A stretch of 64,000 nt of DNA from Nageia nagi. Lineage: Eukaryota; Plantae; Pinophyta. How positions within the stretch are numbered: the first letter of the stretch is position 1; every line of letters begins with the position of its first letter. Where the stretch lies: positions 145,762,001-145,826,000 of the forward strand of contig JBITNC010000001.1 in NCBI GenBank assembly GCA_050084985.1, given 5' to 3'. The notes beneath the pieces are model-generated. The model saw only the letters and a program-made list of their open reading frames with translations, ran no database searches and was not told where the DNA came from. The position numbers and the translations under genes were made by a program. Of the stretch, positions 1,169 through 58,786 are shown piece after piece.

Positions 1169-1412
1169 CCTAATCACTAACCACTAACAACTAATCTTAA
1201 CCAATAACCCTCACCATTAACCCTAACCCTAACAAATAATGAATAATCACTAACCACTAACCACTAAACCTAATGCTAGCTACTAAACCTTAACCATTAC
1301 AAACCCTAACAACTAACTACTAACCCTAACCACTAAACCCTAACTACTAACCCTAATTACTAACCCTAATCACTAACCTTAATCACTAACCCTAACCACC
1401 AACAACTAACCT
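1169..1412. repeat. Degenerate telomere-like tandem array of mixed TAACCC and TAACCAC units
   Basis: About 240 bp of ctaaccactaaccctaac-type units, often alternating 6- and 7-mers. Confidence 0.85.
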
Positions 1413-12022: not shown

Positions 12023-14034
12023 TAATTTCCCTTTCACATTCAATAGAGCTTGAAAATTTGGAAATGATCAAATTTAACATTGGGGGATTATGGAGTGACA
12101 TCTTAGCTTGTTTTTTAAAATTCATCATCTTAAGGAAAGAGTGCAAAACACATTGGCAAATGCTAGAGTTATGATCATATGATATCAACAATATGATTGA
12201 AATAAATGTAATATATACAAAATAGAGAAGAATTGATAACTTACACTTAAGGGCTACTTCATGTTATGGCCATTTAACATGATAACTTACTAGAAGAGGA
12301 AAAAAATAATGATATGATTACTAAAGTAATTGCTAATGGCATGATGCAACCTTCTCACATAGTAATTCAAGAAGTAAATATCCAAATTATGATAAAAACC
12401 AAAGTATTCTCTATTTACATTTATATAATTAGGTTTGGGCACACCCCTAAAATCTAATTATGCCAAACATTCAATACAATAAAGCCTTAGAATAATACAA
12501 ATCACTTGATTAGAGTGATTTATTTATTATACATACTAGAATCTCCCAAAATAGGAGAATAACATGTCCTCTTTTACAGTTGATAATGTCCTAAACTAAC
12601 CTAATCGATGTGTTAATTTAATTTGTGAGCCTTGTAGAAATTCAAAGGCAGTCAAAGTGGATTTGATCCTAAAGTAGTTTTGGAATTTTAAGCTATTAGG
12701 CTACCCAAATGAGTATGTAGGCCCCCTTCTTAATTTTCAAGGGTTATCATAGTGGATTTGGTTTTGAAATATTTTCATAAATCAAAGCTATCAGGCTAGC
12801 CAAATAAGCATGTAGGTCAAGTTATGTACTTTTTCATTACTTTTAGATCAATGGATATTAATTTTAATTAATGGTGTGCAATGGTCAAAATGGTTCATAC
12901 CAATGACCTAAGTGGTCTCAACCATTAGTAATTGATGGAAACTAGAAACTAAGCCACCTCATCTACCAGTAATATCTTTTTCATTTAGTTGGATAAAGAT
13001 ATATTACTTAGTTGTTAAAACCAAGTTATGTTGCATTTATGTCCCTTATTACAAAGAAAAAAAGAGAAAAAAATATTAATTTCCTTGGGTTACCTGAGTA
13101 AGGTGATGAGACTACAAAAATTAGTTTGATACTAACCAACTATATGAGTCTAAAACTTTGAAGGGTTGATGATACTATCATTATGGAAATTTTATCAATG
13201 TCTAAACATTATTGGGTTTGATGCCAAACTAAGAAATTTGCTATTTCTTGAAATTGTGTTGAAGGTGGAATTTGGTGCCTAGAAAAGGGAAGGATTCTAA
13301 CCTTGTTCTATGTCTTGAAAAATCAACACTATGCCACTAACAAATGCTATTATTGTTGACAAATAATTTGCAAGATTATTGTTGTTGTAAGTTTATTTAG
13401 GAAAAAGTTGCCATAGCTATTTTATTACTTGATAATTTATAAGAAGCATAAACTACCTAAAATAAATGCCACTATTGGAAAATAATTTTGTCAATTATTT
13501 TTTTCTATGATGATATTGGTTTCCTCTCTGATGATTTTTGACACAATTATCATCACTATTTAACATTATACAATATATAGATGGCCTATTCCATAGTATA
13601 CAAATTATCTAAAAAAATGTATTTGTCATTTATTTACATTTCCCCCCTCTTATTCCTATTTAAATGTTGTATTCCTCTTTAAAAATATTTCTCTTTATGT
13701 TTTTCCCATTTTACCCCTATTTTGTTATTTTCTATTTGTTAGCATTGGTACTTTATTTATGGGCCTATTCATCATAAAATGTTAAGTAGTAGACACTTTT
13801 ATTCTGGGTTATCATTGAATAAACTTTATAGACTCAACTATTTACAAATAGTCACATTAATTTGGATCATTTATTCATCACACAATGCTTAGTAAGGAAA
13901 ATACTATGAATGTTGGATTAATTCCAACATCTAAGTGAAAATCATTTCTTATGATTTTTTGATGTATATGCTCTCTTGCAAAGATGATAAGCTAACACAT
14001 GTAGGAAGAACACTTGCAAAGGTTATATAATTTG

Positions 14035-14690
14035 TTATGAAACTAGTCAATTACATTTTTCAAAAATACTTTAAAGCCTCCAAACAATGCTTACTCTATG
14101 CATGTCTTGTAATCATTACATCCCATGAGATTGTATCTTTGTGCTGCATTTCCATGAAAATAAATTCAGTTTTCTTAATAATGTCAATCTATGCATATCT
14201 TGTGACCATTATAGTCCATGAGATGGTTGTTCTATCCCTCATTATTTTAAATAGTTCATGGGCCATGTGCATGAACCCATACTACACGTACATACATACC
14301 AGAGTACTCAACACAACAACATAAAAATGAAAACCACTTCTAAGTATACTTGAGGTTGGTTCCCAATTACTTCATCAAATTAAAGAGTTTAAGAGCATTT
14401 TTTCTATAGCAATGATTTGTATTTCCTCCAATCATTGCATTCCATGAAACTATGATCAGATCATGCATCTTGTTAAACAATTATCAGGCCTTGTGTATTC
14501 TTGTAAATTTTGTATACATGTCTATTAGGGTACTCACAACCATAACATTAGATGAAGAACCATTTTGAACTACTCTTTGATGGATGTCCAGACCTTATTT
14601 TGGAGCTTTGATGATGGCAAATGCTGGAAGACTATTGGAAAGGTTTGTAAAGTTTTGTTTTACACCTGATAATTGCATCTACATAAAAGT
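14035..14690 (-). pseudogene. PLS-class pentatricopeptide repeat (PPR) gene fragment
   Basis: Minus-strand translation gives MQLSGVKQN..., GLDIHQRVVQNGSSSNVMVVSTLIDMYTK, ELFKIMRDRTTISWTIMV and MQHKDTISWDVMI...EALKYF, with stops and frameshifts. Confidence 0.85.
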
Positions 14691-15169
14691 GACATAAAAA
14701 GAAAATTCTTATCCTCTTACAAGATAAATATTATGAACTATTGTTCATTACATATTCCTTGCAATTAAGGATGTCATTTACTTTAATCCTTCTTTCTTGA
14801 AAATCAAACTATTGTTTATTTCTCAAAAACTATCCTTTTATGCTTAGATTTGTCTTATCAACATAAAGCATGGGAGTGAAATAAGGTTTTATTTTTTAAT
14901 ATCATGGGCTAGTATTAAAGCACTTTCATGGGTGATAAAGCTTATGTGGATAGGACTTGGATATTTTTGAAAATGTGAGCAAGAAATTCAAAGTTTGTGA
15001 ATAATTTGAAGTCAATGAGGGCCTCTATTGTGAATTCAGAGGTAATATGAAACCTCATTGCATACTTTCTTTTTGTTTTGGTCTCTACTAAAGGAGACTA
15101 CTTTCAACATTATTTTAGCATTTTTATTTTCAAATTTCTATTTTTTTATTGAAATCAACAAATTAAATT

Positions 15170-18100
15170 AAAATGGAAAGTATAATATTATTGATGGGAT
15201 TAACATCAATGGATGACTACAAAACAATATCATGCATATGATGAGAGAGTAGCCAATGAGATAGACATGGGAAAATATCCATGTCCATGTAAACATTATC
15301 TACATGGAAAGGTTAAAAAAGTAAATGTGATTTATAAACATATGATAAGATATGGGCATAGTGGTATAAGCCCCTAGGATCATAACTATTATTAAGATAT
15401 GATAGAATTGTAGACTATGAGAGATGAAGAGGCAACAAACATAGATGAAGTGGAAATAAACATAAATGAATAGGAAAAAAATGTTTGAAAAAGTTGATTA
15501 AATATTGAATGAGGTTCTAAACAATGATTGGTCCAAGTCAATGGAGGATGCTTTAAAGCTTGCATATGCTAATTGCAAGTTAAGTTATTTGACAACAATC
15601 CTTCAAATTATTCACTTGCAAGTGGTGCATGGTTGGAAAAATGAGAGCATTGATTAGTTATTGGTATTATTAAGTTCATTGCTACTAGCTAACTCTATAT
15701 TACCAACAAAACAAAGTCAATTTAAAAAGAAAATCAATAAGCTAAGTTTGGGGTATTAAATCATCTACACATGTGTGAATGGTTGTGTATTATTTCCCAA
15801 AGATATTGCAAATAAAGGTGAATATCCAAAATGTCATGAAGTGTGGTATAAACAAGTGTTAAAATTAGTTGTGATTCCTAGAAAGGTTCCTTAGCACTTT
15901 CCAATAATCCCATGATTACTTCAAATGTATAGGTGTAGAGACATTGTTGAACTTATGTAGTGGCATGCCCAAAGTAAGAGCATTGATGGAAAATAATGAC
16001 ATGTGTCAGATTCTAATATGTGGATGAAATTTGATAATAGATGGCCTATTTTTCTCATGATCCTCACAATATAAGGTTGGATTTGGCTCTAGTTGAGGTG
16101 AAACTATTTTCAAATCAAAGTACTAAATGTTCAACTTGGCTAGCATTTTTAATAAATTATAACTTACCTCCATGGTTAGAAATTAAACCATTTTTCTTAA
16201 TTATATCATGAAAGAAAAGTGTGACTTTAGATACAATAGATGATTATCTAGAGCCATTATATGATGAGCTAATGGAATTATGGAAAGGAGTTGAGGCAAT
16301 TCAATATTGAAGGGATTGTTATGCAATCAAATTCACTTTAAGAGCTTTCTTATTATTTATAATTCATGATCTTATTGCATATGGCACATTATCTACTCTC
16401 TTTGTTCATGGATACTATGAATTTCCTACTTGCAACTTTTATTATTTTGTGAGACACTCAAGAAGTTTGCATAAGTGAGTTTATTATGGGCATCATGCTT
16501 ACCTTAAAATGGATCATCAGTATCATTAATAGAAAACACTTTTCAGTAGTTAAGAAGAGAATCATGAAGCACCATTTCTAAAAATAGGTGATTACATTAT
16601 TGACAATGTACCAAAAAAAGTAATTTATTGAAAATGATGGGATTGTTGGTAGTAGATATGATCTAGGTAATGAAAGTTATGTTAAATAGTTGTGCATATT
16701 ATATTAGTTTAAAATACTTTAAGGATATAACCATTAAGCATATTGTTGAATTTATGCATACTAAGAAAAATATGGCTTATTCTATCATAGAAACTCTTTT
16801 TGGTGCATTTGATACTATTTCATCATGTGAAAGCTTTCGAGAAATATAGAGTCATCAAAATCTTTGGGTTAAAAAATGTGATAATGAAAAATATAGAAAA
16901 CCTAGTGTTCCTTATGTTTGGATAAAGGAACAATGTACACAATTATTACACTTGATGCCTCAAACTTGCTTTCCTACTAAATATGTTAGTAGCAACATTA
17001 GAAGCCAAAGTGACATTAATAGCTTAAGAGGCCTCAACACCCATGACTATCATATCATAACAAAAAATATTTTACCTATTATGGTAAATATATCATGTTT
17101 GAAAAAGGGTTCAAGATTGGCAATTATAAGGTTGGATGTAATATTAAAGAGAATGAGTTTACATGTATTGGATCCTTTGAAATTTACTAGTTTGAGGGAG
17201 GAGGTTGTTGAAGTCCTCTATCTATTGAAATGAGAATTTCTACTAGCAATCTTTAACATTTCTATGCATCTTTTGGTACATATAGAATATGAATTGGAGT
17301 ATTATGTACCACTAAGAATGAGATGGATGTATCCTATAGAAAGATATATGAAGGTTTTAAAAAACATTTTCCATACTAGGGAAAAACTAGAAGGCACCAT
17401 GTACAAGGGATATTCAATGCAAGAGGCCATGCAGTTTTGCACATAATATATGAAGGATTTTAAAAATGTTAATTGATATGTATGGAATGATGATAAAGAT
17501 GAGAGAGTTGTAGGTGAAGTATTAGAATAAAAAGTATATCACTTCAAGCTATCATGTCAAGAAAGAAGTGAAATACATGCATTTATTCTTCAAAATAGAT
17601 CTTCATTTGATAAGTGGTGAAGGTAAAAAAAATTACACAATATTTTATTTACTCAATTGCATTTACACATTTATAATCTTAATCATACTATTTATACATC
17701 ATTATTCTATGTAAAAAATATGAAGAAGAGAATCAAACTTTGATGCAACATCAACCTCAAAAGCATAGATGTCATGATTTGATTAGAGGTGAATTGTTTC
17801 TAAAATTTGAAGGATAGGTTGCTAATGTAATTATTCATACAAAAGAAGGTCAAGATATAACAAAAGAGGAAAGTGAGCTTTCACATTCTCCACATGTATG
17901 GGCTACACATTTTAGTAGAATGTTGACATATAGTAGTCATTTAAGAGTGTAAGAAAATGACAAAGGAAAGATAAATTATTATTGTAGTGCTGAACTTTTG
18001 CATGAAATTGAGAAGAGATTTTATGTTAGATTCATTCAAGAAATTATTCAAGTGGATTTTGGTGAAAATAATCCTATATTATTAAAATGTAAGTGGATCC

Positions 18101-18500
18101 GACCATCTGGAGTACAAATTGATGAGTACGGATTTGTACATACAAATACATGATATTTTCTATCAGATTAAAATGAGCTATATGTTTTCCCTCTTCAAAT
18201 TAACTAGTCATTTCTAATTGATCATGTGAGAAGCCTAGGTTGGTCATATGTCATTCAAATAGAGTCTTATTTGAAATGAAAATTCATGGAAGTTATTGAT
18301 GTAATGCATGATGGGAAATATTTTAATTTACAAGAAACATTTGAAGAAGTGGATGAAGATAATGAGGGACTATTTGAATAAGGGATTGTTAGAGGGAATA
18401 CATTGTATATCACAAATGATGCCAAGAAATAAAATCAAACAAAGGCAGACACAACTAATCAAGATTCCTAGCAAAATTGCTAGACACATGATATTTCTAT
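15170..18500 (+). pseudogene. Decayed CACTA/En-Spm TnpD-like transposase (transposase-associated domain, Transposase_21, DUF4218, DUF4216)
   Basis: Motifs in canonical order: KYPCPCK; IYTCVNGCVLF; PRKVP*HFPIIP; HVSDSNMWMKFD; DPHNIRLDLA; STWLAFLINYNLPPW; IDDYLEPLYDELMELW; LRAFLLFIIHD; GLNTHDYH; MHLLVH...RWMYPIERYMKVLK; LLKCKW. Many stops. Confidence 0.95.
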
Positions 18501-18969
18501 TTGAGATAGATACGCAAGTGAAATAAATAAAATATGGAAATGTTTAGCACATGTAATATGATATTCACTAGATAAAATAATATGATTATCATATACATTT
18601 TTCCCATGTTATATAGTTTAATATCGGATGTGCTTCTGAAAGTTTCACTACATATCATTAATGTTGTTTTTATATCCTTTCTAAAACTTTTATTCATTTC
18701 ATAATTATAAAAATATTTTTTGTTGATCCAATTAGAAGAAATGACCTAATATTGAAGTCATGTGTGTTATAATACCAAAAGAAAAGCTTTGTTGACGAAA
18801 CCTATGCAAAAGAATGTATTGTATACTACAGTTGGTAATAAATAAAGTCATGAAATGTTCTTTTAGATTTTTTTAGATTTGATGATTGTAAATTTTATTT
18901 TTTCTACATTTAATTGTTAAACCAAAAATATTACAAAATGTATGAATTGCTATTTAGGTTATGCTGTTA

Positions 18970-19550
18970 TAGGGTTGGTTCCCAAATACTTCATCAAATC
19001 AATGACTTTAAGGGCATCCTTGTTGTGGCCATTCTCCTCCAATCATTATAGTCCATGAAATCATGTCTGCATCATGCATCTCATCAAACAATTAGTAGGC
19101 CTTGAGTATTCTTTAGCATTTTGCATACATGTATATTATGGTATTCACAACCATAAAATTTGATGAAAAATCATTTTCAACTACTCTTTGATGGATGTCC
19201 ACATGCTCTTCTAGAACTCTAATGGTGCACAAGCTAGAAGAATGCTAGAAGAGGTGACAGTTTGGTTTTACACCAAACAACTACATCTGCTTGAGCATCT
19301 TCAGAGCCTTTTTAGAGAATCCATTTTTATGCATACCTTGCAATCTTATAGTCCATGAAACTATGGTTGCATCACCACATTTTGCATACATGTCTATCAG
19401 GGTAGTCACAACCATAATATTTGATGAAAAACCATTTTTAACTACTCTTTGATGGATGTCCATAGCTTTTTGTAGATCTCCCATGGTGGTACATGGTAAA
19501 ATAATGTTGGAAAAGGTTACATAAGTTGGTTTTACACTTGGGAAACTAGT
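18970..19550 (-). pseudogene. PLS-class PPR gene fragment, paralogous to 14355-14690
   Basis: ORF 19281-19484 reads MGDLQKAMDIHQRVVKNGFSSNIMVVTTLIDMYAKCG...SW...GFSKKALKMLKQM, followed by a second repeat unit. The GGTTGGTTCCCAA end is shared with about 14355. Confidence 0.9.
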
Positions 19551-20231
19551 GCTTAAAAGAGGCTATAAATCTTCCTTAGAGGGTTTTTGTAGGAGCAAGA
19601 GAAGAAGAAGAGTGGTGGAGAGAAGAAAAAAATGGTGTCTATAGGGCTTCTAGTATGAGAAATCATGATCGCTAATAAAGTAAGCCCAAATTACAATATT
19701 CATTCATGTATATAATTTTATCATTGCATGCCATGAGGTTGTATTACTAAAAATTTCATATGGATTTGGTTTCTGGATTGCATTTATATTGTAATCGAAT
19801 CATGTATTCACAGATGTAAAATAGATGGCCATGAATTTGCTTTATTTTCTCCTTTTTACTTTGAAGGCAAAGGACTTTTTTTTGCTTGCATTTGTAGAAT
19901 CATCCAGTCTCATAGTTACCCAAAATAAAATGCCAATCTCCATATTGACATAAATGTCACTTTCATACAATGTTGTGAAGATAGATGGTTGAAACATAGA
20001 ATGTGTATTTTATTTATTACAACACAATTACACACTATTCTTTGTGTAAATAATCATGTCTCAATAGCATTGGATTAACATAATGCATAACAAACCTATC
20101 CACATGAATGTTAATTATGAAAATTTCATCAAATACATGATTGTAGTATTAGAGAGACACCAATTTATGGAATATAAAATACATATGGAGATACAAATGA
20201 AGGGGCACATAAGAGAGAACATAGAAATAGA

Positions 20232-22450
20232 GGATTAAAACTAAAGTATGCAAACTTAACCAGAGTTCTTCAAGCATGTGTCATCATGAAAGCTTCAAAG
20301 AACATTTAAAATTCCATCAAAGAGTAATTGATAATGGTTTGTCATTGTTTCGTGCATATCGTGCGATCATTGCATTACATGAGTATGCATTTCATTTGAA
20401 GACATTTACCAAACAATTCCAGGCCCTATGTTTTCTTTCTTCTTTCTCATACATATTTGTAAGGGAATTAACAACCATAATATTCGGTGAGAAACCACTA
20501 TCACTTACCTCCTCCTAGAATTCCCACGATGGTATATTGCTTCTGCTTAAAAGTCACTTGCGCCTTCTTTGAAAATGCAATTGAGTAATCATCCTACGAT
20601 CATATCAGTCCATGAAGCCGTATTTGCATCATGCATTTTTTCAAACAATTCTCAGACCTTATGTAGTCTTCTTCATTTCGCATACATGTCTGTCTAGGCA
20701 TTCACAACCATAGTATTTGATAAAAAATCATTTTCAACTGCTCATTGATGGGTATTCATACCTTTTAGAACTCCCATGGTGTACAGTGGATTCATACTAG
20801 CAAATGTTACAAAGTTTAGCTTTACATCTGTCACTTGCATTTGCTTAAAAGTCTGCACGACTTTAATAATCAATCACTACAACATTTAAATTTGGAATAT
20901 ATTCAAGGTAGGGCTGATTCAGAGTTTTTTCTTATGAAACTATCAATGGTTTCATTTAATAATTTATATTAAATAAATAGTTTGTAATATTAAGAAAATT
21001 AGTAAAGGATACAATAAATAGTTTGTAGGCACCACAAGCCATATGATGTTAAATAATATGACATGAAATGGTGATACGATTAAACTGTATTTTCTAAGAA
21101 ACCTTGAGATCCTCTAAACCATGTACATATGCTTTGACCATTATATTCCATGAGGTTGTATCTTTCTAATATACGTGCCTAGTCTAAGGATATCCTGTTA
21201 TCACTATAGACCATGAGACGTTGTCTCTCTGCTGAACTAATTTTATCTTCAAGAACTATTGCAAAATATATTATTGAGGGATGCAAACCACTCCCATCAT
21301 TTCAACACAGCAAATATTTTTGAAGAAATAGGTAATGCTAGATCCAGAGAATCTCAAATAATGATATGATGCATGCTTTCAGTAAAGAATTGAGAATCTA
21401 TGATCATCATACATTAAATATCATATCACAAACTATACAGTAGACATATCATTCTTCTGGTGTGCATATTTGGAGCATACATGGAAATCATAATTCTTAC
21501 TATTGACTTAAATAGTTTTCATCATAGGACTAACATATATGACTATCATGGTTATGAGCATTACACTATTACCTTTCTGCATCTTGCTAAGAGCATAATG
21601 CTAAATGAAGTTGCTGAGGGGATAGGGACTAAAAATATTTTAGAAGCAAGAGTATCTGTCACTGCTTATCCCTAGATTCAATCATTATACATGCATTGCT
21701 GTTCAAACTTGACCATAAAGATTGTATTCAATTATTTGCATGACCAAGTAAAGAATAGGGAATTCCTTTAAATATTTCCTCGAACATCATTCTATTGCAA
21801 TCTTACTTGACAACCCTGATCATACTACTGTTGGTACATTTACATTCATTTTATCATATCAATCACGAGTAACACATCATAATATCTGTATCATTTTAGG
21901 ATGCATCATATGAAGAGTAATCATTTGGATTTCTATTAATTTGTAATGTGAGGTTGGAAATATCCCTTAAGACGCGAGAGAAGGTCAATTTCAAGTGATG
22001 GCTTCTATAAGGGAATATAAGGTAAATATGATTTTCGATACATGGAGTCTCACTTTATATTTCGTGAGATGGTTCTGTAGTGACATTCATAGCATAATCA
22101 CTACCATTATAAACTGACATACTAATATTATCTTACAACAGTAAAGGAACTTGAGAAAGTATGATACATATTCTTGAATATTATGATGGAATAATCCTCT
22201 AAACCCAAATGGTGACTTCAAATGGTGGATTCAAAAGGATGGAAAACTTACGTTATTAAATAGGTTTTCTAATTCTACAGTGTACAGATACATGAATCAA
22301 ATCGTGAGCAAGGATAAAGAAATTGTCATACATGTATTGATCCTTTTTGCACTATTTTGCATTTTTAGTTCAAGTAGAATTTATCTTCTTGCAAGCACAT
22401 CATGAGGAACTTGAGCTGTTGAATAATGAAGATCATTTTAAGAGTTGTAA
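20232..22450. pseudogene. Patchwork of PPR-derived fragments on both strands, CpG-retaining
   Basis: Plus strand 20232-20340: GLKLKYANLTRVLQAC / FHQRVIDNG. Minus strand 20340-20865: FKQMQVTDVKLNFVTFAS, VVNA*TDMYAK, ELFEKMHDANTASW, VVNSLTNMY, NAYSCNAMIARYARN. Short minus-strand pieces KDTTSWNIMV and QRDNVSW at 21110-21235. Weaker pieces continue to about 22450. Confidence 0.75.
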
Positions 22451-22989
22451 ATGAGGGATTGTTTATTAAGGAATCGTAAGAGGATCAGTCCATAGGGGCA
22501 ATGTAAAAAATTAAAAAATCTAATGGAAGGGATCCATCATTTGATAGTGGATGTACCCTGCACCGAGGGGAACCACTATATTTTTTTGTGTTTGACCTTT
22601 TTTTATTTTTTTTATTTTTATTGAATGTTCTTTTGTTCAGTTTTATTCTACAGTCATAATATTGAGTTAATTAATTACACATATGGTACTCTTATCTTAC
22701 TATAAGAATGAAAGATTTTATTTATTTTTTTAATTTTAAGAACATATAATGTTTATTTGTAGTAAAGAAATCTGAAATTTTGCGCATATTAATTCTATTG
22801 TATAGTTTTAAATCTTTAAATATGAACTATGTGAAATTATGATTTCTTATATATATGTCATTGTACTTGCTATTTTTACATGAAGAATATTAAGATCTCT
22901 TGATAAAATTGGTAGATTTATAGCAAGATGTATTTTGGTGATGACTATGTAAAGTCTTGAGATCTCTCAGTTTAGTTGAATGTAATTGA

Positions 22990-23250
22990 TAATCCACCTT
23001 GTCAAATAATTTGTGTACTTTTTCTATGATTTCACATTTTGCATACATGTTTATCAAGGCATTCACAACAACATCTGACAAAAATATGCTTTTAAAGAGT
23101 CTTTGATGTATGTATAAATCCTGTTGCAAATCACCCAGTTGGGTGCATGTTGGTATTTGTTGCATTTGATGAGACAATATCAATGCATATCAAGGAAAGC
23201 CATGCTTTCTTAACTTGAAAATATCATAATCCATGAGAAGACATCTAGTC
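22990..23250 (-). pseudogene. PPR gene fragment
   Basis: ORF 22890-23183 contains CTQLGDLQQDLYIHQRLFKSIFLSDVVVNALINMYAKCEIIEKVHKLFDKV. Confidence 0.85.
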
Positions 23251-23384
23251 TCATATAGTAAAAAATTTAATGGTCCTTCCACCATGGGAGAACATAAGTA
23301 TGTGGGGGAGCTATAGAAGAAGAAGCAATTGGATGAGATGAAGTTTTTGTAGAGAGTGAGGTGCTAAGAGTATCATAAACTACT

Positions 23385-23562
23385 GGGGATTGTTAGAGTC
23401 AAAAGTATTTTCAATTAATCTTTGTTTATCATACCCACAAGACTATCCATAATGATCCAAGAATCAACTAGATGGGAATTGTTAGGGTCATAAGTATTTT
23501 GAATTAATCTTTGTTGATCAAACCCATAATATTATCTCTAATGATCCTAGAATCAACTCTAT
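23385..23562. repeat. Two-copy tandem duplication, unit about 89 bp
   Basis: GG.ATTGTTAG.GTCA.AAGTATTTT.AATTAATCTTTGTT.ATCA.ACCCA...TAATGATCC.AGAATCAACT appears twice in a row. Confidence 0.8.
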
Positions 23563-24399
23563 ATGCAACCATATTCACCATCATAAGGGACTTTAAGGGC
23601 TAACATCTTTTGGGAAGAAATACTAAGGTTTCTGAGGAAGTGGCTACTTCGAATAGTTCTTTAGAAAGTTAGTTGTAACTTACCTCCAATCAAAATTGAA
23701 TATTTTAGTCAAAGGGATTTTCTTCATGGTTTAGAAAATATGGATGTTATGATTGTTATTTAGTGGAAGAAATTATACATATGGAAGTGTGCAATTGAGA
23801 AACATTTAGCCTACAAATATTTACTAGGTGTTCTAACATCCCTTCTTCCATTCTTTATAGCTCCTTAATAGTGTTATAGTTTACAAGTTCTTTATTAATT
23901 CAATTTCCTTTAAATATAATCATCCATCACTGATTTACTATAGTCTCATGTCTTATAATATTGGATCCTTATGAATTACCAGCAACGTAATATATCAAAA
24001 CTAGAAAACCTCGATGGTCAACAAAAATCTAATATTATTATCATGAACATCCACCATTAATATTTAATCAAATTGTATGTTCTTAGAATTATTTTTATAG
24101 AATTCCATTTACACTTTTAACTACATTCATGATCCCATTATTGCAACATAAGGGAGAGTTTATTGTATTTGTATTGTAATGTAAACAATAATTCATACAT
24201 TAGTTCCATAAATCATTTTCAAAATATTCAGTTTGATAATGAGCATGATACTTTTATAAGATATGGTGACATTGGTTTGTATTTCCTATAAAACTCTTGC
24301 CTTATGTAATAAATTTGAGTTGGACTCGTTTATAATTACTTCAGCTTGTAGTTGGACTCATTTCTCACTTGATGATGTACATTACTAAATCTATTTATT

Positions 24400-27120
24400 C
24401 TAGATAATTTAGGAAATATTTTGATATTATAGAATACAAAGGAAAATATATTTTCTTAACTACCTAAAAATGAAGAACTTGTTCCTGGTTGAGATATAAA
24501 TGATGAGTTATATTGATTTTCTTTTCAAGGAGTTGAGGATCACTTACCTTTTGAGTTGTTTGGAGGTATGAAAAAGGGAGTAGCATTACCTTAGGTAATT
24601 ATATCTAATGATTCACTCAATGCAACTGAACCTAAAGTATGTTGCTCAATCTATGTCTTTGGTGCTTGATACTTTTATTTTATTGAAATTTATTCTACAC
24701 TTTGGATTATTTATTATATGTTGTGATGTGTTTGGTATAAATAATTATATTTTGATATAAAATAAATATCTTTTAGGATTTAGTTGTATAAGTACAAAAT
24801 AAGAATTCAACAAAAATTTGGTTTTTTAGAGCCTCTGTACAATGCATGCAATTTCTATTACATTTAATTCTCTCAGAATCAAGTTGCTAATTTATTCATT
24901 CTTATTTTTTTGAACATTAGGAAATGGGGAGAAAAAATTTAAGTTACAAATTAGATGATAGTGATTGTAATGCTAAAATTCCAATGACATATTATGAACG
25001 CTTTCCTAAAGAATGCATGGCCTTGAATAATGAATATTTATCACATCTTGGTTTGTCAAAGTGGCAAGTTGTAAATATGCAATGTAGTTTATTATTTGTT
25101 TAATACTATTGAATGAAATTTTATAAGCAAAATATTTATGTATATATAACATGATATGATTTTTCTTATTTTACATGAAAGAAAAAAATCATACAAAAAA
25201 TGAAGAGAAAAAATATGTAAGTGATGAAAAAGATAGTGCTTTCAATTCATACAAGCTAACGTTTGTGTGATCCAACAAATGTAGTTGGTGAAAAAGGTAG
25301 TTACGATGATATGTAAGCTAATATAGCACATGATGATATTCAAACTGATATACCACTTAGTGATGTGCAACCTAATATAACACATGGTAATGTGTAGCAT
25401 AATGAAATTCTTAAATAGAGTTCACTTGCATCTGATGTACCTCAGAATGCTCCTATTCCTAGTGGTTCAATAGAAGATGTATCCACTTTTGTTAAAATAA
25501 AGAAATTGAGTCAAAATTTATATAGATCTATAGAGAGGTAAGCAAGAGAAATAGTATTAGAAAAGAATAAGCCATTCATGGTTGAGGTATGATTGAGGTA
25601 TCAAGAGATGGTGAACCTATTGGGAAAAATGCTGAAAGGTGGGCCTCCAAGTTGGGTGCAAGATATAGTGTTCATTTGGATATTTGCAGGTTAATTTTTG
25701 TAGAGCAAGATCCATAACAAATGAAATATGTTATACAAAAAAACAAAATACCTTCAACACCATTAGTGAAAAAATCTCTAGGAATATTACAAGAAGAAGA
25801 TGAGACTTTTGATGAACAATTTTAGATACAATTGTATAAAATCAATCATGGAGGGAAAAAAGAGGTTAGAATCTACTCTATCTCCCATACAATGGGAGAT
25901 ATTGAAAAAAAGTATCCATTATGAAGAGTATTTGAGAAAAGTAAAAGAGAGCAAAAGAGAATGTGAGGGCTAGATATACATTTGGTCGAGGTGATTTGCA
26001 AGCCAAAATGAACAAATTTAAAGTAAGTGTATGGATTTTAAAATAGTTCAATATACATTGTGTTATTTATTTCAATTTTTTTATTCAACTGACTATGTGT
26101 TAAAATAACATTGTACTTTAGGTAGAAAATAATAATAGAGAGGCAAGTGCTGAAGATATTATCAATTATATGGTATCACTAGATCCCACTAGATCTAAGA
26201 GTAGTATGAAATGGAAATCTATTTCACAATAGAGATTTCAAAACCATATATTGAATGCCTAGTAAGAGCCATTCCAAATCATGTTAACTCAAATGTAGGC
26301 CACCAATATTTAATGATTTTTTTACATAATCTTATTGAGAAAATTTCATAGTTGACTTTCTCAATTCAGCCTATAATTGCTACATGGAATGATGATAATC
26401 CCACGAATTCAAATTAAGAGTTTTTATTGATGAGTTAAGTTTGGTTCATATTACTATATCTTTTGCATTATTAAAAGTATAATTTTATCAAGATTTATCA
26501 CTTTTAACTACATGTAGAATAATTTGATCAAAGCAACAAAAAATTAAAAACACCTTGATGCTGACAAAGATAATGCCAATATTGATAGTGATCATGAACT
26601 AGTGGAAGAGAATGTGCCACCCAATAATAGTTATGTTAAGGTAATATAATAGTTTCTAAGGAATTATATTTTACTTATGAAACTAGCAGACAATATTTGT
26701 TGATAAAGTTTGAACTAATCAAATGCGTAACAATGATCTCATAATCTTATGTTTCTGGTATGCATGCATGGTAATGATTATTTATATTTGTATCATTATC
26801 ATTTCATAACTTATTGATTTAATATGTCATTCTTTTTTCTTTATGTAGAAATGTATTGATAAACTTAAACAAGGGGATAAAGTTAAGGTATTGGATCTAT
26901 TTGATGGTGATGTTGTGGGTATTGGATGAATTCACTCTATCTTAATTATACATGGAGTCAACTTGAAACGAACAAGAGATGCAAATGCAAATATTTTAAA
27001 GGTTACAAGTAATGTACCCCTTGCTTATGAGAAAAATATAAGTGGAGCTACTCACCTAAAAGAGAAACAGGGATCCTTCACATGATGGTCACTAAAGTAT
27101 TTACAAAAAATGACTGTGTA
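24400..27120 (+). pseudogene. Decayed multi-exon CACTA second gene (TnpA-like)
   Basis: Purine-rich exon-like blocks are separated by AT-rich GT..AG intron-like blocks. EVSRDGEPIGKNAERWASKLG at about 25595-25660 resembles the GxPxG.....LG motif of CACTA ORF2. Lies directly upstream of subterminal repeats and a TAGTG end. Confidence 0.6.
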
Positions 27121-27549
27121 GTTGATCAACATATTTATTATGTACTAGTTGTTAGACATCATGACTCACCGCTTTATGTAGTAATTTTTTTTTATTATTT
27201 AGGGATTATAATTAGAGAGGTATTTTTGGAAGAGTTGGAAACTCTTATACAACTTTGATATTTTTCACTATATTTACATATACACTATTAGATATAATTG
27301 ACATATTATAATTTGATATTTCTATTTCTATTAAAAAAATTTAATTACACATTAGCTTTATTTATCATGATGTTGAATCAATCCTTTAATTTTAGCTTGT
27401 TGTATCTTGTTTGAATGTGTAATATTTTTATTTATTTTTATCTTTTTGGTTCAAGTTTAATATTATTCTATTTTTGCATTATAAAATTTATGGTATTTAA
27501 TAAATTATTTATTTCATGACTTTATTTATTAACAACTAATGGTAATCAA

Positions 27550-27930
27550 TAAATAAAAATGACTAAATTTATGACTAATGCAATGATTACATATATGGTG
27601 AATGCAATGACTAAATATACAATTAAATTAATAACTAAATATATGATTAAATTAATGACTAAATATACAACTAAATTCATGACTAAGCATATAACTAAAT
27701 AAATAAATAAATATACAACTAAATCAACAATTAAAATAATGACTAAATCAATGACTAAATATACTACTAAATTCATGACTAAATCGATGACTAAATATAC
27801 TACTAAATTTATGACTAAATATATTAATAAATCAATGAATAAATATACTTTTAAATTCATGATTAAATTAGTGACTTAATATACTACTAAATTCATGACT
27901 AAATCAATTTCCAAATAAATGACTAACATA
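27550..27930. repeat. CACTA subterminal tandem array, 12-bp unit (ATGACTAAATnn) with 24/36-bp higher order
   Basis: About 30 copies of (A/G)ACTAAAT at 12-bp spacing. Inverted copies (TAGTCA) occur at 27934-28038. Confidence 0.9.
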
Positions 27931-28029
27931 GTTTAGTCAAAAATTTGATCATGAGATAAATGATTGAAAATAAAATACTAATATTCTATGATAAAAAATA
28001 GTCATTTATATATACTTTTTAGTAGTTTA

Positions 28030-28061
28030 GTTAGTCATATATTGCTACTTTTGTACTAGTG
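28030..28061 (-). mobile_element. Right terminal inverted repeat of a CACTA element
   Basis: ...GTCATATATTGCTACTTTTGTACTAGTG, reverse complement CACTAGTACAAAAGTAGC, adjacent to the subterminal array. Confidence 0.75.
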
Positions 28062-28959
28062 TGATAGTGTTCTAGAAGATTGTAACCCCTCAACTTAGAA
28101 AGAATTAGAACATAATCTAGAGGAACTTGATGAGCTCCCATCCAATGCATTATAAGTACTCATAAAAGAATATCTTCCTTTCATTATTCAAACTTTATAA
28201 GAAGTTGATATCGAAGTCAAACACCTCCTAGGCTTTAACCTAGATACCAATCTCGAATATACCAAATAGAGGAAAATGATTTAACAAAATTAATATGATA
28301 TGACCTTAACCCCTTATTGAAAGGTTTCTAAGTATTTCAAACCTTTTAAAGTTCCTTTTTTACATTTTTCTATCACTAATGTTCCTCCCAAACCTCAAAT
28401 TCCTAACCAAACCCTTGGTACTCATAGAACCCTAATGATACCACTAGACCTAACATTGTTGCTCTATTACTTGATCAAAATCCTAATCAATATTTTCTAG
28501 ATCTTAGGATTTTTGTACCATAGTTATTTCCCTCATATGATAAATAATTGGAAGATAAGATTGACAAATAAGATCTACTAATTGATATCTTAGAATATGA
28601 AGAGCCTCAAAAGCCACCCATCCCTAAATCTTTCATGGATGAACTTGATCTAGCAATAGCATTTGGCATGAAAGAAAGACCAGGTTAGTTAGATGCAAAA
28701 TTCAATATATTGAAGAAAGAACTAAAGTTTTGAAGCTTAATAGGCAGTATGTGGCTACTCCACCAGAATACTAATTAGAGATGGTTAACATTCTTGTAAG
28801 AACTTTAAAGTAGTAAAAAGTTCACTATTTTGGTTTATTTATGAGTTTATCAAAGTAAATGAATATAGATATTGTGGACCATTATAACAAGTACCTCTTG
28901 ATGTTGCACTACAACAAATACTATAGTTAAAGAAATAAAATGTTTCCATCATGGCTTGT

Positions 28960-30060: not shown

Positions 30061-31487
30061 TGTGAGTATCCCTCAACCATAACCATAATAACAAGCTCAA
30101 CAACCATAGGTTATAGGTATGGTTCTTGATATACGTGGTATTTAGGCTATTGCATAAATTATTTCAATGTATTTTCTATTTTCAAATTCCTTTTTCATTG
30201 TTTTTCTCAAAATTTGTAGTTCTTAATTTTAAAATTATTATTATTGTATTCTGTTACCCAAGTGATGATGTTGGAATATAGCATCGTTGCTCCATTCTTA
30301 GTCCCATATGATCAAAATATTATCATAATGTCTTAGTTATATAACTTTCATTACAAAAATATGTATGTGCTTATTCACTTCACTTCATATTTTTGAAAAA
30401 TGTTAGCAAATATGATGAATGGGAACCTAGATTGTAAGCCTTCTTTGCCTTTCCATTTCTAGGCCTCTTTTTCTATCAATTAGGTGATATCCTAAATAAT
30501 GTTTATTTCTTGTTTCAACCTTTCCTCCTTATCCAAGCACTTATGTTGTATCCTAGTGCTATCACTCTATCATGTTTATCATTAACATGAATATTTTAAG
30601 TTTGAAAAGATTGTATATGATTGTATTGTCAAAATTAATTATTGTTAAAGTACCTTTTATTTTTTGATCTAGCTAATAACATGTTTCATGTCAATTTTGC
30701 ATAATTTTGTATACATTCATTTTGCTTAAATCTATAATGTTACAATAATATTTTTTATTTTTGTCAAAATTAGTCATAAATTTTTTATCTTATAAATAAA
30801 CATATCATTCATGCTAATAAACAAACAAATAAATATAAATCCAAAAATTCATATTTTTGTATGTATAAATATATATAAAAATAAGTCTATAAATATAGGT
30901 CTCTTATACAAACTAGTTCCCCCATGGGAACTCTAACCAATAGATGGATCATAGGTCCTACTCCTACTCTTAGATCTAGACCAACTAGTCAATGTAGTCA
31001 CCAATATCTTCCCAAATTGAATAAGTTGGCTATCCTTTACCATAATCATATCATAGATCCCCTTTAGTTCTTGGTGATGCATCACATGAGGAAGACACTA
31101 CAAAGTCTCTATTTGAACATCTTTTGCCTTAAATGTTACTTGTAGACTCACCACCTATGCTTATAATGCTTTCACCTCCTGAGTATCTAGCCCTATTTCA
31201 AAAAGGTTACAGTCAATTATTTTTTGTAATAAACCAATTGCCAAATCCTAAGAGTCTATGTATACTAGAGGTGTTTACTAGGGGAGCTATAGCTCCTTAT
31301 GAGGATGGTGAAAATGGGCTCACTAACTATGTAGATAGTAGAAGTTCAACAACATTTGTAGGCTCCTCTCTTGCTATATCCTCCTCCCTTCTCCTACCCA
31401 TATCCTTCTATTCCTCTAAATTATCTTCCTCCTCATCCTTTAAGCCTAGTGGGTAAGACCTCATCGAGTCCCACTATCATTGATATT

Positions 31488-32338
31488 TGTAATGACTCTA
31501 TTTTTAAGAATATCTTGCATTTGGAATTTTCCATAAATCTTTTCTCCTACAAGTCAGATATGGTCGTTACACCTTCAGAATTAGATAGAGCATCTCATGG
31601 CATTTATTTTAAGTGGTCACATGACCCCTTTTGGACAAGAAATAAAGGAGTTATGGCTACTTGAAGTTTGCCAATCGAACCAGTCTTCCATATCGTGCCT
31701 ACACACGAAAATCCACTTAACTTAGTGGATTTTTACTTAAAAGTGCAATGTTGAATTATAATAAACTTTTATGTTATTCTAATATTATTTAAGTACTTTT
31801 ATTTGTAATAAGGCAATCAATGGCTTAGATTAGCTTAGAGGGGTCAATGTAAGATTAGGGTTGGAGTCTATATAAGGAGATGCAACACTCCATTTTGGGT
31901 ATGTTATGTGATATGAGAATTGAATATTGAAACCCTAGAGTTTCCATGAGTTGAGATTGTAGGTCTTGATCATTCCCATAGTGCATTGGAGGTGCATGGT
32001 TGGGGACTTGGCAATATCATTGAAGGTGTTATTGTCCTAAAATATCAAAAATACAAAAAGAGGCATCTGTGAATGGTTCATGGCATTTCTTTTGTGGAGG
32101 GATTCACTCAATTTGGAAAGTTTGTATCTGCATTTTTAGTTTCGTGAGGATTCCATTTGTCCATTCCAACTTTGTATTGGTTTGGAAATATTTAATATAT
32201 GATACTGGCCAATTTCTCCTCATACTAGTGTTATTTTATGAGCAATTTATGAGTTGTTTTATAGCTGCAATTTATTTCTACATTTTTATGTTGAGGGTTT
32301 GCTAGAAATAAAGAAATAAAAATAAAAGGAACATCACA
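31488..32338 (+). repeat. 5' LTR (851 bp)
   Basis: About 95% identical to 36714-37565 by eye (roughly 40 substitutions, nearly all transitions, 3 single-base indels). TATA-like CTATATAAG at about 31868. Confidence 0.97.
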
Positions 32339-33334
32339 AGTGGTATCAGAGCTTGGATCTTGCCAACCTGCGGTTAGATCTAACATTTTTCAAATATTTG
32401 GAGTTAATGTTTTTGCAAAAAATTTAGATCTTCAATTTTTAGCATCTGGGTGTTGAATATTTTTGGGGGATCTAATAGATCAAGGAGGTTTACATTTTAA
32501 AAGCAATTTTTCAAGGTTAAAAGGCATTTTTTAAAGAAAATCTACATTCCTAGACTAAGTCATCTAGGGTTGAGAGATAAGAATTATAGGATTGAAAGCT
32601 ATTTTCAAACATAAAAAGTCTTGATCTATTATTCTAGCTAGTCAAAAAAATTTTGCTCAAGGATTCTAGGCAGAATTGGAGTTTTGAGTAAAAAAATTTT
32701 TGCAAAATTTTCAGATCTAGCATTTTTTAGTGTTTCTCAATTATGGGTATCTCAATTTTAGAGTTTTTCAGAATTAGGGTTGCCAATTTTATAATGAAAA
32801 TATTTTGGGTATTACAGATTCTTGGTAATTTGTTTGGTTGCAGAAAGAACCCCTAATTTCGTGGGTATCAAGAAACCCTATTTTGAGGGGCCATTTGAGG
32901 CCAATTTTGGAGTTCCAGCATCAGATCTAGCATACTAAGCTAAACATCTAACCTTAAGGGGTATTTTTGAACACTTCATATGCAATTTTAAGCTTTTAGA
33001 AGGGTTTTTATAGAGGAAAAACAAGAAGGTGACATTTTTGAAGATTCAGTTAGTTGGAGGTATTTATCGGGTAGATTTGAGCACCCATTAAGCTCTACTT
33101 CTCATTGCCACCTTTAGAAAAAATGTTGAAATTTTTTTTATATGAGATCTAGCATTTCCTATGATTTTTGACCTATTTTTTAGTAATTGTACAAATAGGG
33201 GTTTGAAGGTTGATGTTTGCTAAGAGTGGATCATGGAAATATTCAGGAGAAAAGAGAATTAGTAGAAGTTGGATGCAATGATTATTTTGATGCAAAAGAT
33301 GGTGACATTAGAGGAAGCAAATAGATAAGCAATA

Positions 33335-34912
33335 GTGACATTAAAAAGGGTAAACATGCAACAAAATGGAACCAATGAACCTAAAAGAGAGAAAAGACAA
33401 GTGCAACAAAAAATGACCATTCCCACCTTTAATGGTCAAGATAGTTTATCAACTTTGGGAAAAATAGAGAAAGATAAAATTTTCCATAAAAAAGAAGAGC
33501 TTGAGGAGAATTATGCAAAAAATTTTGAAGTTGTTCCTACCATTGAAAAAGAGGAAAGGGGCCAAACAGAAAATTTTGAAGAAAATGCAAGTAGTGAAGA
33601 CATTTCAGCAATGAAGCATGGTTCATCTAGCATGATTGATTTCACTCAAGAGATTGGTGATAGAGATGCTACTCTCCCACTTGAGGTATGTTTGAAAGAG
33701 AATAAAAATACTTCCTTTTGTACATTTATACCTACACATGTTGAAAATGAATTCAATGAGAAACATGATGCTCATGATTTGGGAAAAGAGTTAGAGAATG
33801 TTTCAAATTTGTTTTTTGCATACTCTATGAAAAAGCTACAAAAGGGTGTTGAAGAATTTTCAGTTTGTGAAAGTTTGGAGAGAAATGGGCTAGAAATCCA
33901 AATTAAGCCCTTAAATAATTATGATCATAATGGCCTTAGTTTTCCTTGTGTGAAGAGTTTTGTGAGGGAAAGATCAATCACATTTGAGAATTATGATCAA
34001 TCTTTAAATGCATGGGATCTAGGAATTCTTTTCATATATGGTAAGAGTTCTTTTGGAGGAAAGAATCACAAACATATTCAGCCATGGTACATGTCTCATA
34101 CTCATCTCATGGGAGGAGGACAATCCTTTGACATTTCACAAATTCTGTTATGTAAAGGTAAATTTACTACAACCATAGTTCCTTCAAACAAAATGTTTAT
34201 TTTTCTCATGTGGATGCATCAACATGGTAGGAGGTGTAGAACACTTCTCAAGTGGGACATTGTAGAAGGAGATACTTTTTCATGGACATATGTGGTATCT
34301 TTTCACTTATTTTTGTGGCTTTCATGGATTTACAAATTGCTAATTCAATTTTGGTATTTGGAGTGGACTTTTGAAGTCTTATATGTGAGTAGAATGGTGC
34401 AAAATTCTCACTTTTTTGCAATCAATAAATTTGATTTAACAATCAAAAAAATTGTAGAAGAAAATGAAAACAATTGGCATATTTTTCATCATACATGTTC
34501 ACATGATACTTTTAGTCTTTTAAATAGTTGGAATAGCCAACAAAGAAGCACCATGATTGGAAAATTTGAGAGAGTTACAGTTGCAAATTTGATGAATTTT
34601 TTGAGCAGAAAAAGGACTGATTCCACACTTGATTGGGAGACTTATGTACATTTCATGTATGGTTTAAAATGTAAATGGGATAGATGGGTTGTACTTTTGG
34701 TTGAACCTTGGCATGCATTGGTTCATAATGTCATCTTGATGATTTTTTATTTCATTTTGAGAATGTGTAATAGTTCCAGATGGAAAGTTAATCATTTCAT
34801 TTACAGATTGTTGGAGTTGGAAGACATTTTGAGCAATTCATGGGTCTTAGAGAAGCACTTGGGTAGTCTTGATTGCATTTTTTCTACTTTTATACCATTC
34901 ATAGCCTTGTAA
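33335..34912 (+). CDS. 525-codon ORF of unknown function inside the LTR element; N-terminus has a gag-like remnant
   Basis: ORF track. KMTIPTFNG resembles the Gypsy gag KxxIPxFxG motif; the rest is unrecognisable and H/W/C/F-rich. The frame stays open past the TAA to about 35062. Confidence 0.5.
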   Translation: MTLKRVNMQQNGTNEPKREKRQVQQKMTIPTFNGQDSLSTLGKIEKDKIFHKKEELEENYAKNFEVVPTIEKEERGQTENFEENASSEDISAMKHGSSSMIDFTQEIGDRDATLPLEVCLKENKNTSFCTFIPTHVENEFNEKHDAHDLGKELENVSNLFFAYSMKKLQKGVEEFSVCESLERNGLEIQIKPLNNYDHNGLSFPCVKSFVRERSITFENYDQSLNAWDLGILFIYGKSSFGGKNHKHIQPWYMSHTHLMGGGQSFDISQILLCKGKFTTTIVPSNKMFIFLMWMHQHGRRCRTLLKWDIVEGDTFSWTYVVSFHLFLWLSWIYKLLIQFWYLEWTFEVLYVSRMVQNSHFFAINKFDLTIKKIVEENENNWHIFHHTCSHDTFSLLNSWNSQQRSTMIGKFERVTVANLMNFLSRKRTDSTLDWETYVHFMYGLKCKWDRWVVLLVEPWHALVHNVILMIFYFILRMCNSSRWKVNHFIYRLLELEDILSNSWVLEKHLGSLDCIFSTFIPFIAL

Positions 34913-35331
34913 AGACTCTTGAGTACACTTGAAGCCTTGTACATCTTCAATTCAGGTTTGATATGGAGCACACTACATTGGAGGATTTTAAGTTGGTATT
35001 TGATCACTGACATACATAAGATGGCATACAATTTTCAGATTGCAGAACTTACAATGAAATAATTTGATTTGTGAGTTTATTTGGGCATACCAAAAGAAGG
35101 TTTTATATATACTTGTCAAATATTAGTACATCTTCCTTCATGTTTTACACTCCACTTTGCAAGATGTTTTGGACTATTCTGATGACAATTAGTGTGGCAA
35201 ACAATTTATACAAATATGATTGTACATTGCATGATTTTTTATGCAATAAGAGTTGAGACTGATATGCATGAGTTGCAAAATTGCATATGTGTTCTTTTGC
35301 TCAACTTGGATAAGGCAAAATAGAAAATTTC

Positions 35332-58743: not shown

Positions 58744-58786
58744 GGCTGTGGAAGAAGAAGCTTCGCCTTCTTGGATTTTAACAGAC

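What the first reader, a model, noticed from the sequence alone, without database searches (positions are those of the whole stretch)
20232..22450. CpG-retaining patchwork of short sense and antisense PPR fragments: candidate TAS-like/phasiRNA locus
Seen: unlike the neighbouring TE DNA, this stretch keeps CG and CAG/CTG sites (e.g. TTTCGTGCATATCGTGCG, GACGCGAG). It is not one decayed gene. A plus-strand PPR piece (20232-20340) abuts minus-strand pieces (20340-20865). After that come short scraps of the most conserved PPR motifs (DxxSWNxMI, LIDMY, TFxxVL, YAMxG) in mixed orientation. Established: PPR families are regulated by phased siRNAs from non-coding TAS1/2-like transcripts that carry PPR-complementary segments. 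Inference: this may be a transcribed, unmethylated non-coding siRNA generator targeting an expanded PLS-PPR family.
Basis: partly seen in the sequence, partly recalled or inferred. Interest (0 to 1): 0.7.

Follow-up and report, generated by a model that had tools for sequence, protein, structure and literature searches.

The report
CpG-rich mosaic of dead PPR genes
This stretch of likely conifer DNA holds broken pieces of RNA-editing (PPR) genes in both orientations and keeps CG sites that its neighbours have lost; it is most likely pseudogene debris beside a dead transposon that probably escaped methylation, and a role as a small-RNA source is possible but untested.

Summary
The stretch holds pieces of a conifer-type PLS-DYW PPR family: plus strand 20232-20344, minus 20347-20864 and 21004-21234, a plus-strand DYW scrap 21236-21306 and a weaker plus-strand L2/S2/E1 scrap 21621-21722. 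Beyond 21722 nothing rises above noise. The minus pieces are collinear, like one deletion-riddled gene; only about 280 nt are inverted. Three more minus-strand relics lie nearby (13926-14690, 18971-19538, 22995-23251), around a decayed CACTA transposase. CG retention is real and specific: 13 CG/29 GC in these pieces against 1/40 in two sister relics (p=7e-4), at equal decay, and 6 of 10 CGs sit in codons foreign to the family. This points to long-term low methylation over about 20347-22990. But nothing TAS-specific was found: no excess of family-matching 21-mers over the sister relics, no site for 7 spruce trigger miRNAs, no long hairpin, no RNA data. Best reading (0.55): rearranged pseudogene debris, probably CACTA-associated, in a hypomethylated island. 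TAS-like siRNA source: about 0.25. Small-RNA and bisulfite data would decide.

The parts
20232..20344 (+). PPR piece, end of P motif and most of L motif, one frameshift; inverted relative to all long relics; 0 CG
20347..20864 (-). Main PPR relic: P-L-S-P[deletion]L[deletion]S-P, 5 stops in 143 aligned codons, 10 CG
20865..21003 (.). AT-rich spacer with an imperfect palindrome (20937-21024), no PPR signal; stands where about 70 codons would be expected
21004..21234 (-). Shrunken S-end/SS/P/L-start stretch with internal deletions, collinear with the main relic and with relic A
21236..21306 (+). Scrap of the DYW domain end, head to head with the minus piece; core 21268-21306 28 bits, 36 bits with the upstream part under a cheaper frameshift penalty (no null run for that setting)
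21621..21722 (+). Likely L2/S2 scrap (21621-21703, 24 bits, borderline) running into an E1-like scrap (21693-21722, 21 bits per 10 codons)
21723..22990 (.). CG/CWG-retaining sequence with no detectable PPR or Rfam match; GC-rich stem-loop at 22545-22578; candidate splice-acceptor-like tract near 22628-22654 (plus)
20347..22990 (.). CG-retaining island (24 CG/63 GC; 40 CWG/38 GWC); boundaries set after looking at the data
13926..14690 (-). Sister PPR relic A (P-L-S-P2 joined to L-S-SS-P-L), CG-depleted
18971..19538 (-). Sister PPR relic B, CG-depleted; ends at the same P2 position as the first half of A (76% over 329 nt)
22995..23251 (-). Sister PPR relic D, CG-depleted
15150..18400 (+). Decayed CACTA ORF1: Transposase_21 (E 6e-33), DUF4218 (E 4e-17), weak Transpos_assoc and DUF4216
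13325..28071 (+). Possible extent of one CACTA element holding all four relics: weak terminal match (13325-13344 with 28050-28071), 12/24-bp array 27558-27926, decayed plus-strand reading frames at about 25.3-27.1 kb without Pfam hit; suggestive only

Best explanation
The stretch is a mosaic of dead PLS-DYW PPR gene pieces in both orientations beside a decayed CACTA transposase, most likely functionless debris that probably stayed low in CG methylation. Shown: family, orientations, collinearity of the minus pieces, decay equal to three sister relics, CG excess. Inferred: one or more PPR genes of a tandemly expanded conifer family were copied into or invaded by a CACTA element; repeated deletions shrank the copy, and repair with template switching inserted three short inverted pieces at abutting junctions. 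Inferred: a promoter or residual Pol II transcription kept about 2.6 kb low in methylation, so newly arising CGs survived. Any siRNAs would be a by-product, not a selected output.
For: Minus pieces are collinear and align with relic A. Sister relics A, B and D show the same internal deletions and junctions without CG retention, so scrambling is a property of the whole neighbourhood. Decay is the same: 84 of 170 conserved codons changed in the island against 152 of 345 in A/B/D; identity to the family consensus 0.44-0.49 against 0.38-0.55. 21-nt windows within 2 changes of a family coding sequence: 16.5 per 100 nt in the main relic against 16.4, 22.3 and 23.6 in A, B, D. CACTA ORF1 lies between A and B. 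Gymnosperm TEs hold about 400,000 captured gene fragments per genome, about 20% transcribed, and about 26% of TE-mediated pseudogenes of Platycladus are transcribed (PMC13477047). CACTA elements carry captured fragments, also upstream of ORF1 (PMC8978399).
Against: The CG island is unexplained by passive decay: 24 CG/63 GC against 22/247 in the surrounding 12 kb (p=1e-5), 0 of 491 other windows reach it; captured fragments in Platycladus TEs are not less methylated. All identifiable pieces come from one family, and two inverted pieces abut their neighbours within 2-3 nt, which also fits a selected assembly. The single-element CACTA model rests on a terminal match scoring 13 against a runner-up of 12-13 and an imperfect target duplication; ORF2 has no Pfam hit.
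Confidence: 0.55

Rival explanations
1. A TAS-like/PHAS non-coding gene derived from PPR pseudogene pieces: a Pol II transcript is cut by a 22-nt miRNA or by PPR phasiRNAs, copied by RDR6 and diced by DCL4 into 21-nt siRNAs that would damp the expanded PLS-DYW family.
For: CG island with de novo CGs; in Wollemia, transcribed TEs and genes without intronic TEs are the low-methylation class (PMC10473749). No ORF over 80 aa. 30 windows of the main relic are within 1 change of a family coding sequence (a lower bound from proteins of other species). Precedents: litchi TASL1/2 from GID1-like non-coding copies, TASL2 without its own miRNA site (PMC10955497); PPR PHAS loci and 606 non-coding PHAS loci in spruce (PMC4651229).
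Against: No enrichment of target-matching 21-mers over neutral sister relics. No site for 6 spruce triggers (ungapped; best score 8.0) or for 2 with one bulge (best 9.0) in 19.5-23.5 kb; only 7 different of 43 listed triggers were tried, from another conifer family. Known PPR siRNA sources are mostly P class, not PLS. Over half of the interval has no detectable PPR origin.
Confidence: 0.25
2. The island is a promoter, enhancer or first exon of an unrelated transcript (lncRNA or a distant long-intron gene); the PPR pieces are incidental old substrate.
For: The CG zone extends 1.2 kb beyond the last PPR scrap; CG and CWG levels approach those of the gene-like region at 56.5-59.6 kb; donor-like sites at 21330 and 22019 and an acceptor-like tract near 22628 lie on the plus strand.
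Against: Such splice-like motifs are expected by chance in AT-rich DNA (no null was run); no coding exon found nearby.
Confidence: 0.12
3. A young MIRNA-type inverted duplication: the plus L piece folds back on a minus L piece and yields PPR-targeting small RNAs.
For: Inverted PPR pieces lie within 0.5-1 kb; folding z-scores -2.07 and -1.80 (20 shuffles each).
Against: The plus piece is only 64% identical to its minus neighbour and closer (70-72%) to relics A and B; the predicted folds show no long duplex between them; no Rfam match at E up to 1.
Confidence: 0.05
4. Assembly chimera.
For: Abrupt junctions; no read or second copy could be checked.
Against: Pieces are old (stops, 57-79% mutual identity) and too short and diverged to be confused by an assembler.
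Confidence: 0.03

Closest known systems
TE-captured gene fragments and TE-mediated pseudogenes of gymnosperms; Pack-CACTA capture (PMC13477047, PMC8978399, PMC13317346)
   Same: Non-coding host-gene pieces next to a CACTA transposase, several pieces per element, sometimes transcribed
   Different: All pieces here come from one family and lie in both orientations; element ends are not proven; the core retains CG, whereas captured fragments in Platycladus are not less methylated
Litchi LcTASL1/LcTASL2 (miR482/2118-TASL-GID1; PMC10955497)
   Same: Non-coding copy of the gene family it would regulate; TASL2 needs no miRNA site of its own
   Different: There transcript, phasing and cleavage are shown; here none is; here the copy is scrambled and about half its conserved codons are changed
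Arabidopsis TAS1/TAS2 (miR173) and eudicot TASL-PPR modules (miR7122, miR1509; Xia et al. 2013, seen only through citing passages)
   Same: Non-coding DNA with PPR-complementary segments
   Different: Eudicot trigger family; targets are a small PPR clade and PPR siRNA sources are mostly P class; no trigger site found here; PLS-DYW family in a likely conifer
Conifer-expanded PLS-DYW PPR editing factors (Cryptomeria japonica XP_057865965, XP_057854690, XP_059067325; PMC9545813)
   Same: Motif types P, L, S, SS, P2, L2, S2, E1, DYW; 34-57% identity in the best aligned pieces
   Different: Broken, deleted and partly inverted; no protein can be made

Membership tests
TAS/TAS-like (PHAS) locus | Pol II transcript | not testable with these tools
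   No RNA holder listed, no genome held
TAS/TAS-like (PHAS) locus | No protein-coding capacity | tested here: met
   Longest ATG ORF in 20100-23100 is 80 aa; stops and frameshifts
TAS/TAS-like (PHAS) locus | Site for a 22-nt miRNA trigger (or two miR390 sites) | tested here: inconclusive
   0 of 7 spruce triggers score 7 or better in 19.5-23.5 kb; 36 of 43 listed were not tried and the species' own miRNAs are unknown
TAS/TAS-like (PHAS) locus | 21-nt phased siRNAs, RDR6/DCL4 dependent | not testable with these tools
   No small-RNA reads available
TAS/TAS-like (PHAS) locus | siRNA-length segments complementary to trans targets, kept by selection | tested here: inconclusive
   Near-matching windows exist (30 within 1 change) but are no denser than in sister relics; computed from proteins of 85 relatives, not from the species' own mRNAs
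PLS-DYW PPR pseudogene | Homology to PLS motifs of an intact family | tested here: met
   tblastn and codon-profile hits
PLS-DYW PPR pseudogene | Disabling lesions | tested here: met
   Stops, frameshifts, deletions
PLS-DYW PPR pseudogene | All pieces collinear with one gene | tested here: not met
   Minus pieces collinear, three plus pieces inverted and out of order (L, DYW, L2/S2/E1)
Pack-CACTA capture | CACTA transposase domains | tested here: met
   Transposase_21 and DUF4218 above cut-off
Pack-CACTA capture | Fragments enclosed by matching CACTA termini with a 3-bp target duplication | tested here: inconclusive
   Weak reciprocal terminal match, duplication 2 of 3
Pack-CACTA capture | Further copies of the element carrying the same fragments | not testable with these tools
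   No genome held
MIRNA from inverted duplication | Long, well-paired hairpin between the inverted arms | tested here: not met
   64% arm identity, no long duplex

The most novel reading that the evidence does not exclude
A conifer TAS-like gene assembled inside a CACTA element from sense and antisense scraps of PLS-DYW RNA-editing factor genes, kept unmethylated and diced into 21-nt siRNAs that tune the whole expanded editing-factor family: an origin of a PPR tasiRNA module independent of the eudicot miR173/miR7122 line, caught midway between pseudogene and TAS gene.
Probability: 0.2. Interest if true: 0.65.

Novelty: new member of a known kind. Interest (0 to 1): 0.3.

Why it matters
As debris it is one of very many conifer gene fragments, with a modestly curious CG island. 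If it yields phased siRNAs, it would extend PPR-directed TAS-like modules to gymnosperms and to PLS-DYW editing factors, link siRNA control to organellar RNA editing capacity, and show how a TAS gene can be built from its target family. The three CG-depleted sister relics give a built-in control, so the question is cheap to settle with existing types of data.

Tried and rejected
No whole genome is held. No RNA holder was listed; this is no evidence either way. An exact 23-nt junction pattern found 0 stretches in metagenome contigs. Rfam: 0 matches in the window at gathering score and 0 at E up to 1 in 18500-24500. Pfam on 6 frames of the finding: 0 families. k-mer and DNA alignment tests of 21311-22990 against the in-window relics: a weak minus-strand 8-mer excess (115 against 77 in shuffles, p 0.01; 9% of control windows reach it), none at k=10, best alignment within the null: inconclusive. 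Mutation spectrum: C-to-T/G-to-A share 24 of 61 in the island against 58 of 120 in A/B/D, p=0.27: no added support for low methylation. Helitron-type 3' ends: no convincing one. The bacterial promoter scan is irrelevant to a plant and was not used. The protein atlas could not read the ORF2 candidate; Pfam gave 0 families for 6 pieces of it. Earlier scan notes: 5 look-ups, 2 unrelated PPR pseudogene notes. Xia et al. 2013 is not held.

Full report
Setting. The window is 28.7% GC with CG O/E 0.144 and CAG/CTG O/E 0.37, the signature of heavily methylated plant DNA (own knowledge). No genome is held. A search with the relic at 19029-19562 returned 11,011 proteins at E up to 0.001, 150 listed. When all 154 proteins then in hand were run against the window, the best matches of the long relics were mostly P0006, P0012 and P0026, named as Cryptomeria japonica PLS PPR proteins; a search with P0012 listed 120 relatives, mostly Cryptomeria, Ginkgo and Taxus. 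The source is therefore likely a conifer of the cypress-yew group; the species was not established. Lineage-specific expansion of PLS-class PPRs in gymnosperms is published (PMC9545813, passages).

Map of the pieces. Pfam saw no PPR family in any of the 6 frames of the finding, but did in the relics at 13.9-14.7, 19.0-19.5 and (weakly) 23.0 kb. I built codon-level profiles from 85 close relatives (487 P-L-S triplets, 91 SS motifs, 73 C-termini) and ran a frameshift-aware local alignment on both strands. In the finding: plus 20232-20344 (P30-L32, 29 bits); minus 20347-20864 (188 bits); minus 21172-21234 (38) and 21073-21168 (26); plus 21268-21306 (DYW end, 28); plus 21621-21703 (L2/S2, 24). In 150 dinucleotide shuffles of 20865-22450 the mean number of hits of at least 23.5 bits was 0.13, the maximum 2, against 4 observed; taken singly, 0, 2%, 1.3% and 10% of shuffles reached 38.1, 25.6, 28.4 and 23.9 bits. 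Outside the PPR zone the whole-window scan gave 8 hits of 21-30 bits, the two of them in low-complexity tracts included, so single scraps in this range are not safe on score alone. A fixed 10-codon scan adds an E1-like scrap at 21693-21722 (21 bits; background 0.14 per kb at 20 bits) and nothing of 18 bits or more from 21723 to 22990. The DYW scrap has an in-register upstream part from 21236, so it starts 2 nt from the minus piece; the first plus piece ends 3 nt from the main minus piece.

Order. Read on the minus strand, 21263 to 20347 runs S-end, SS, P, L-start, an AT-rich gap, then P, L, S, P, L, S, P, with internal deletions of about 10-70 codons (my reading of the alignments). 21263-21004 aligns along relic A's second half with score 104.5 against a null maximum of 80.5 in 60 shuffles. 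So about 750 nt behave as one shrunken gene, and about 280 nt are inverted and out of gene order. The plus L piece is 64% identical to its neighbour and 70-72% to relics A and B, so it is not a simple local fold-back. Relics A, B and D also carry deletions or junctions, and A and B break at the same P2 position.

CG retention. The finding has 21 CG (O/E 0.367); 5.7% of all sliding windows reach this when the finding itself and the gene-like region are included, and 0 of 984 when they are left out. The best control is the same family: 13 CG/29 GC in the island's PPR-bearing parts against 1/40 in A plus B (Fisher p=7e-4); D has 0/9; CAG/CTG does not differ (p=1). For 20347-22990 against the rest of 13335-28061: CG 24/63 against 22/247 (p=1e-5), CWG 40/38 against 57/130 (p=0.002); 0 of 491 other windows reach the CG ratio, 10 of 491 the CWG ratio. 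The region was chosen for this trait and the borders were set afterwards, so the p-values are optimistic. The island is no younger than its sisters: 84 of 170 conserved codons changed against 152 of 345. Of 10 CGs that fall in aligned codons of the island, 6 lie in codons whose residue occurs in about 3% or fewer of the family motifs, 1 is ambiguous, 3 fit the consensus; most therefore arose after the gene died and were not erased. Inference: long-term low CG methylation. Against: the share of C-to-T/G-to-A changes is not significantly lower (24 of 61 against 58 of 120, p=0.27). In Wollemia, CG and CHG methylation are 78% and 65-69% genome-wide, while transcribed TEs and genes without intronic TEs are low (PMC10473749, passages), which makes transcription or a promoter the likely cause.

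Tests of the TAS reading. If siRNAs from here were selected to hit PPR mRNAs, target-matching 21-mers should be denser than in neutral relics. Counting the fewest base changes needed to encode any 7-residue stretch of the 85 proteins: windows within 2 changes number 16.5 per 100 nt in the main relic, 5.7-19.6 in the scraps, 16.4, 22.3 and 23.6 in A, B, D, and 2.0-3.5 in controls and in 21311-22450. No excess. Six triggers from the spruce table (43 rows, PMC4651229 section 6) gave no ungapped site of score 7 or better in 19.5-23.5 kb, best 8.0; a one-bulge scan with miR4376 and miR3627 gave 9.0 at best there; a published cut-off is under 4. The species' own triggers are unknown, so this is weak. 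Folding of 20225-20870 gave z -2.07 and -1.80 on 20 shuffles without a long duplex of the inverted arms. Longest ATG ORF is 80 aa. Transcript, phasing and methylation were not testable.

Transposon context. A decayed CACTA ORF1 lies between A and B (Transposase_21 E 6e-33, DUF4218 E 4e-17; weak Transpos_assoc and DUF4216). Downstream of D are decayed plus-strand frames at about 25.3-27.1 kb that look like a CACTA second ORF by recall only (0 Pfam families), a 12/24-bp array (27558-27926) and a CACTA-like end near 28061. Its best match in the window is at 13321, upstream of A, with score 13 against 12 for the next; in the reverse search it ties with another site; the flanking triplets match at 2 of 3. 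One 14.7-kb element enclosing all four relics is plausible, not shown.

Mechanism. Shown: a scrambled, non-coding set of PLS-DYW pieces with a CG-rich core near a CACTA transposase. Inferred: capture or invasion by the transposon, shrinkage by deletion, insertion of inverted scraps by template-switch repair (mechanism from own knowledge; capture models reviewed in PMC13317346, passages), and protection from methylation by a promoter or residual transcription. I give this 0.55, a TAS-like source 0.25, an unrelated regulatory element 0.12, a hairpin 0.05, an artefact 0.03.

Literature seen. Passages only: PMC5902766, bioRxiv 2025.07.20.665670 (36) and its journal version PMC13612597 (55 species, no mention of gymnosperms, mostly P-class sources), PMC10827316, PMC9545813, PMC8978399, PMC13317346, PMC10473749, PMC12807265. 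Passages plus named sections: PMC4651229 (supplement file 4, 31 of 103 'pentatricopeptide' rows; file 1 not searchable), PMC5846777, PMC10955497, PMC13477047 (abstract, passages, section 11; 61, 62, 66). Xia et al. 2013 is not held and may describe TASL genes made of PPR fragments; unseen supplements of the spruce and Cryptomeria papers may list relevant loci or triggers. Searches (listings only) showed no paper on a PPR-derived TAS-like locus in a conifer; the library lacks most subscription papers.

Verdict. Real mosaic, real CG island, no positive sign of a TAS pathway. Filed as a new member of a known kind (rearranged, probably TE-associated pseudogene fragments); interest 0.3, with a testable upside.

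Noticed in passing
window 13325-28071: Possible single CACTA element enclosing all four PPR relics, with ORF1 at 15.2-18.4 kb, unidentified decayed frames at 25.3-27.1 kb and a 12/24-bp subterminal-like array at 27558-27926; termini match weakly.
   Followed up: partly
window 22545-22578: GC-rich stem-loop (-13.4 kcal/mol) near the right edge of the CG island, closed by TAGTG/CACTA; it holds the two best (but poor, 9.0 and 9.5) one-bulge matches to spruce miR4376 in the window.
   Followed up: partly
window 14354-14680 and 18973-19288: Relics A and B share 76% over 329 nt and break at the same position of the P2 motif, suggesting a common truncated ancestor; A continues into an out-of-order L-S-SS-P-L piece.
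   Followed up: partly
window 31487-37557: Element with 95% identical 840-nt direct terminal repeats (LTR-like) and internal ORFs of 527 and 371 aa with no Pfam hit; CG-depleted but CWG partly kept.
   Followed up: partly
window 56500-59600: CG- and CWG-rich gene-like region on the minus strand with ORFs of 177, 103 and 119 aa; no Pfam family; one unnamed relative at 35% identity (P0282).
   Followed up: partly
window 19705-19748 and 20147-20177: Two further possible PPR motif-start scraps (minus and plus) in the spacer between relic B and the finding, at noise level.
   Followed up: no
window 54627-54659: Isolated minus-strand match to the L motif start (26 bits), far from the cluster; may be chance or another scrap.
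   Followed up: no
window 1169-1411: Degenerate 7-bp array resembling an interstitial telomere-like repeat (resemblance by recall).
   Followed up: no
window 60287-61520: Interleaved 24-bp arrays with direct and inverted copies 720 nt apart, possibly a small DNA transposon.
   Followed up: no
window 41180-41834 and 42933-43561: Tandem duplication with a period of about 1.73 kb at 76-79% identity.
   Followed up: no
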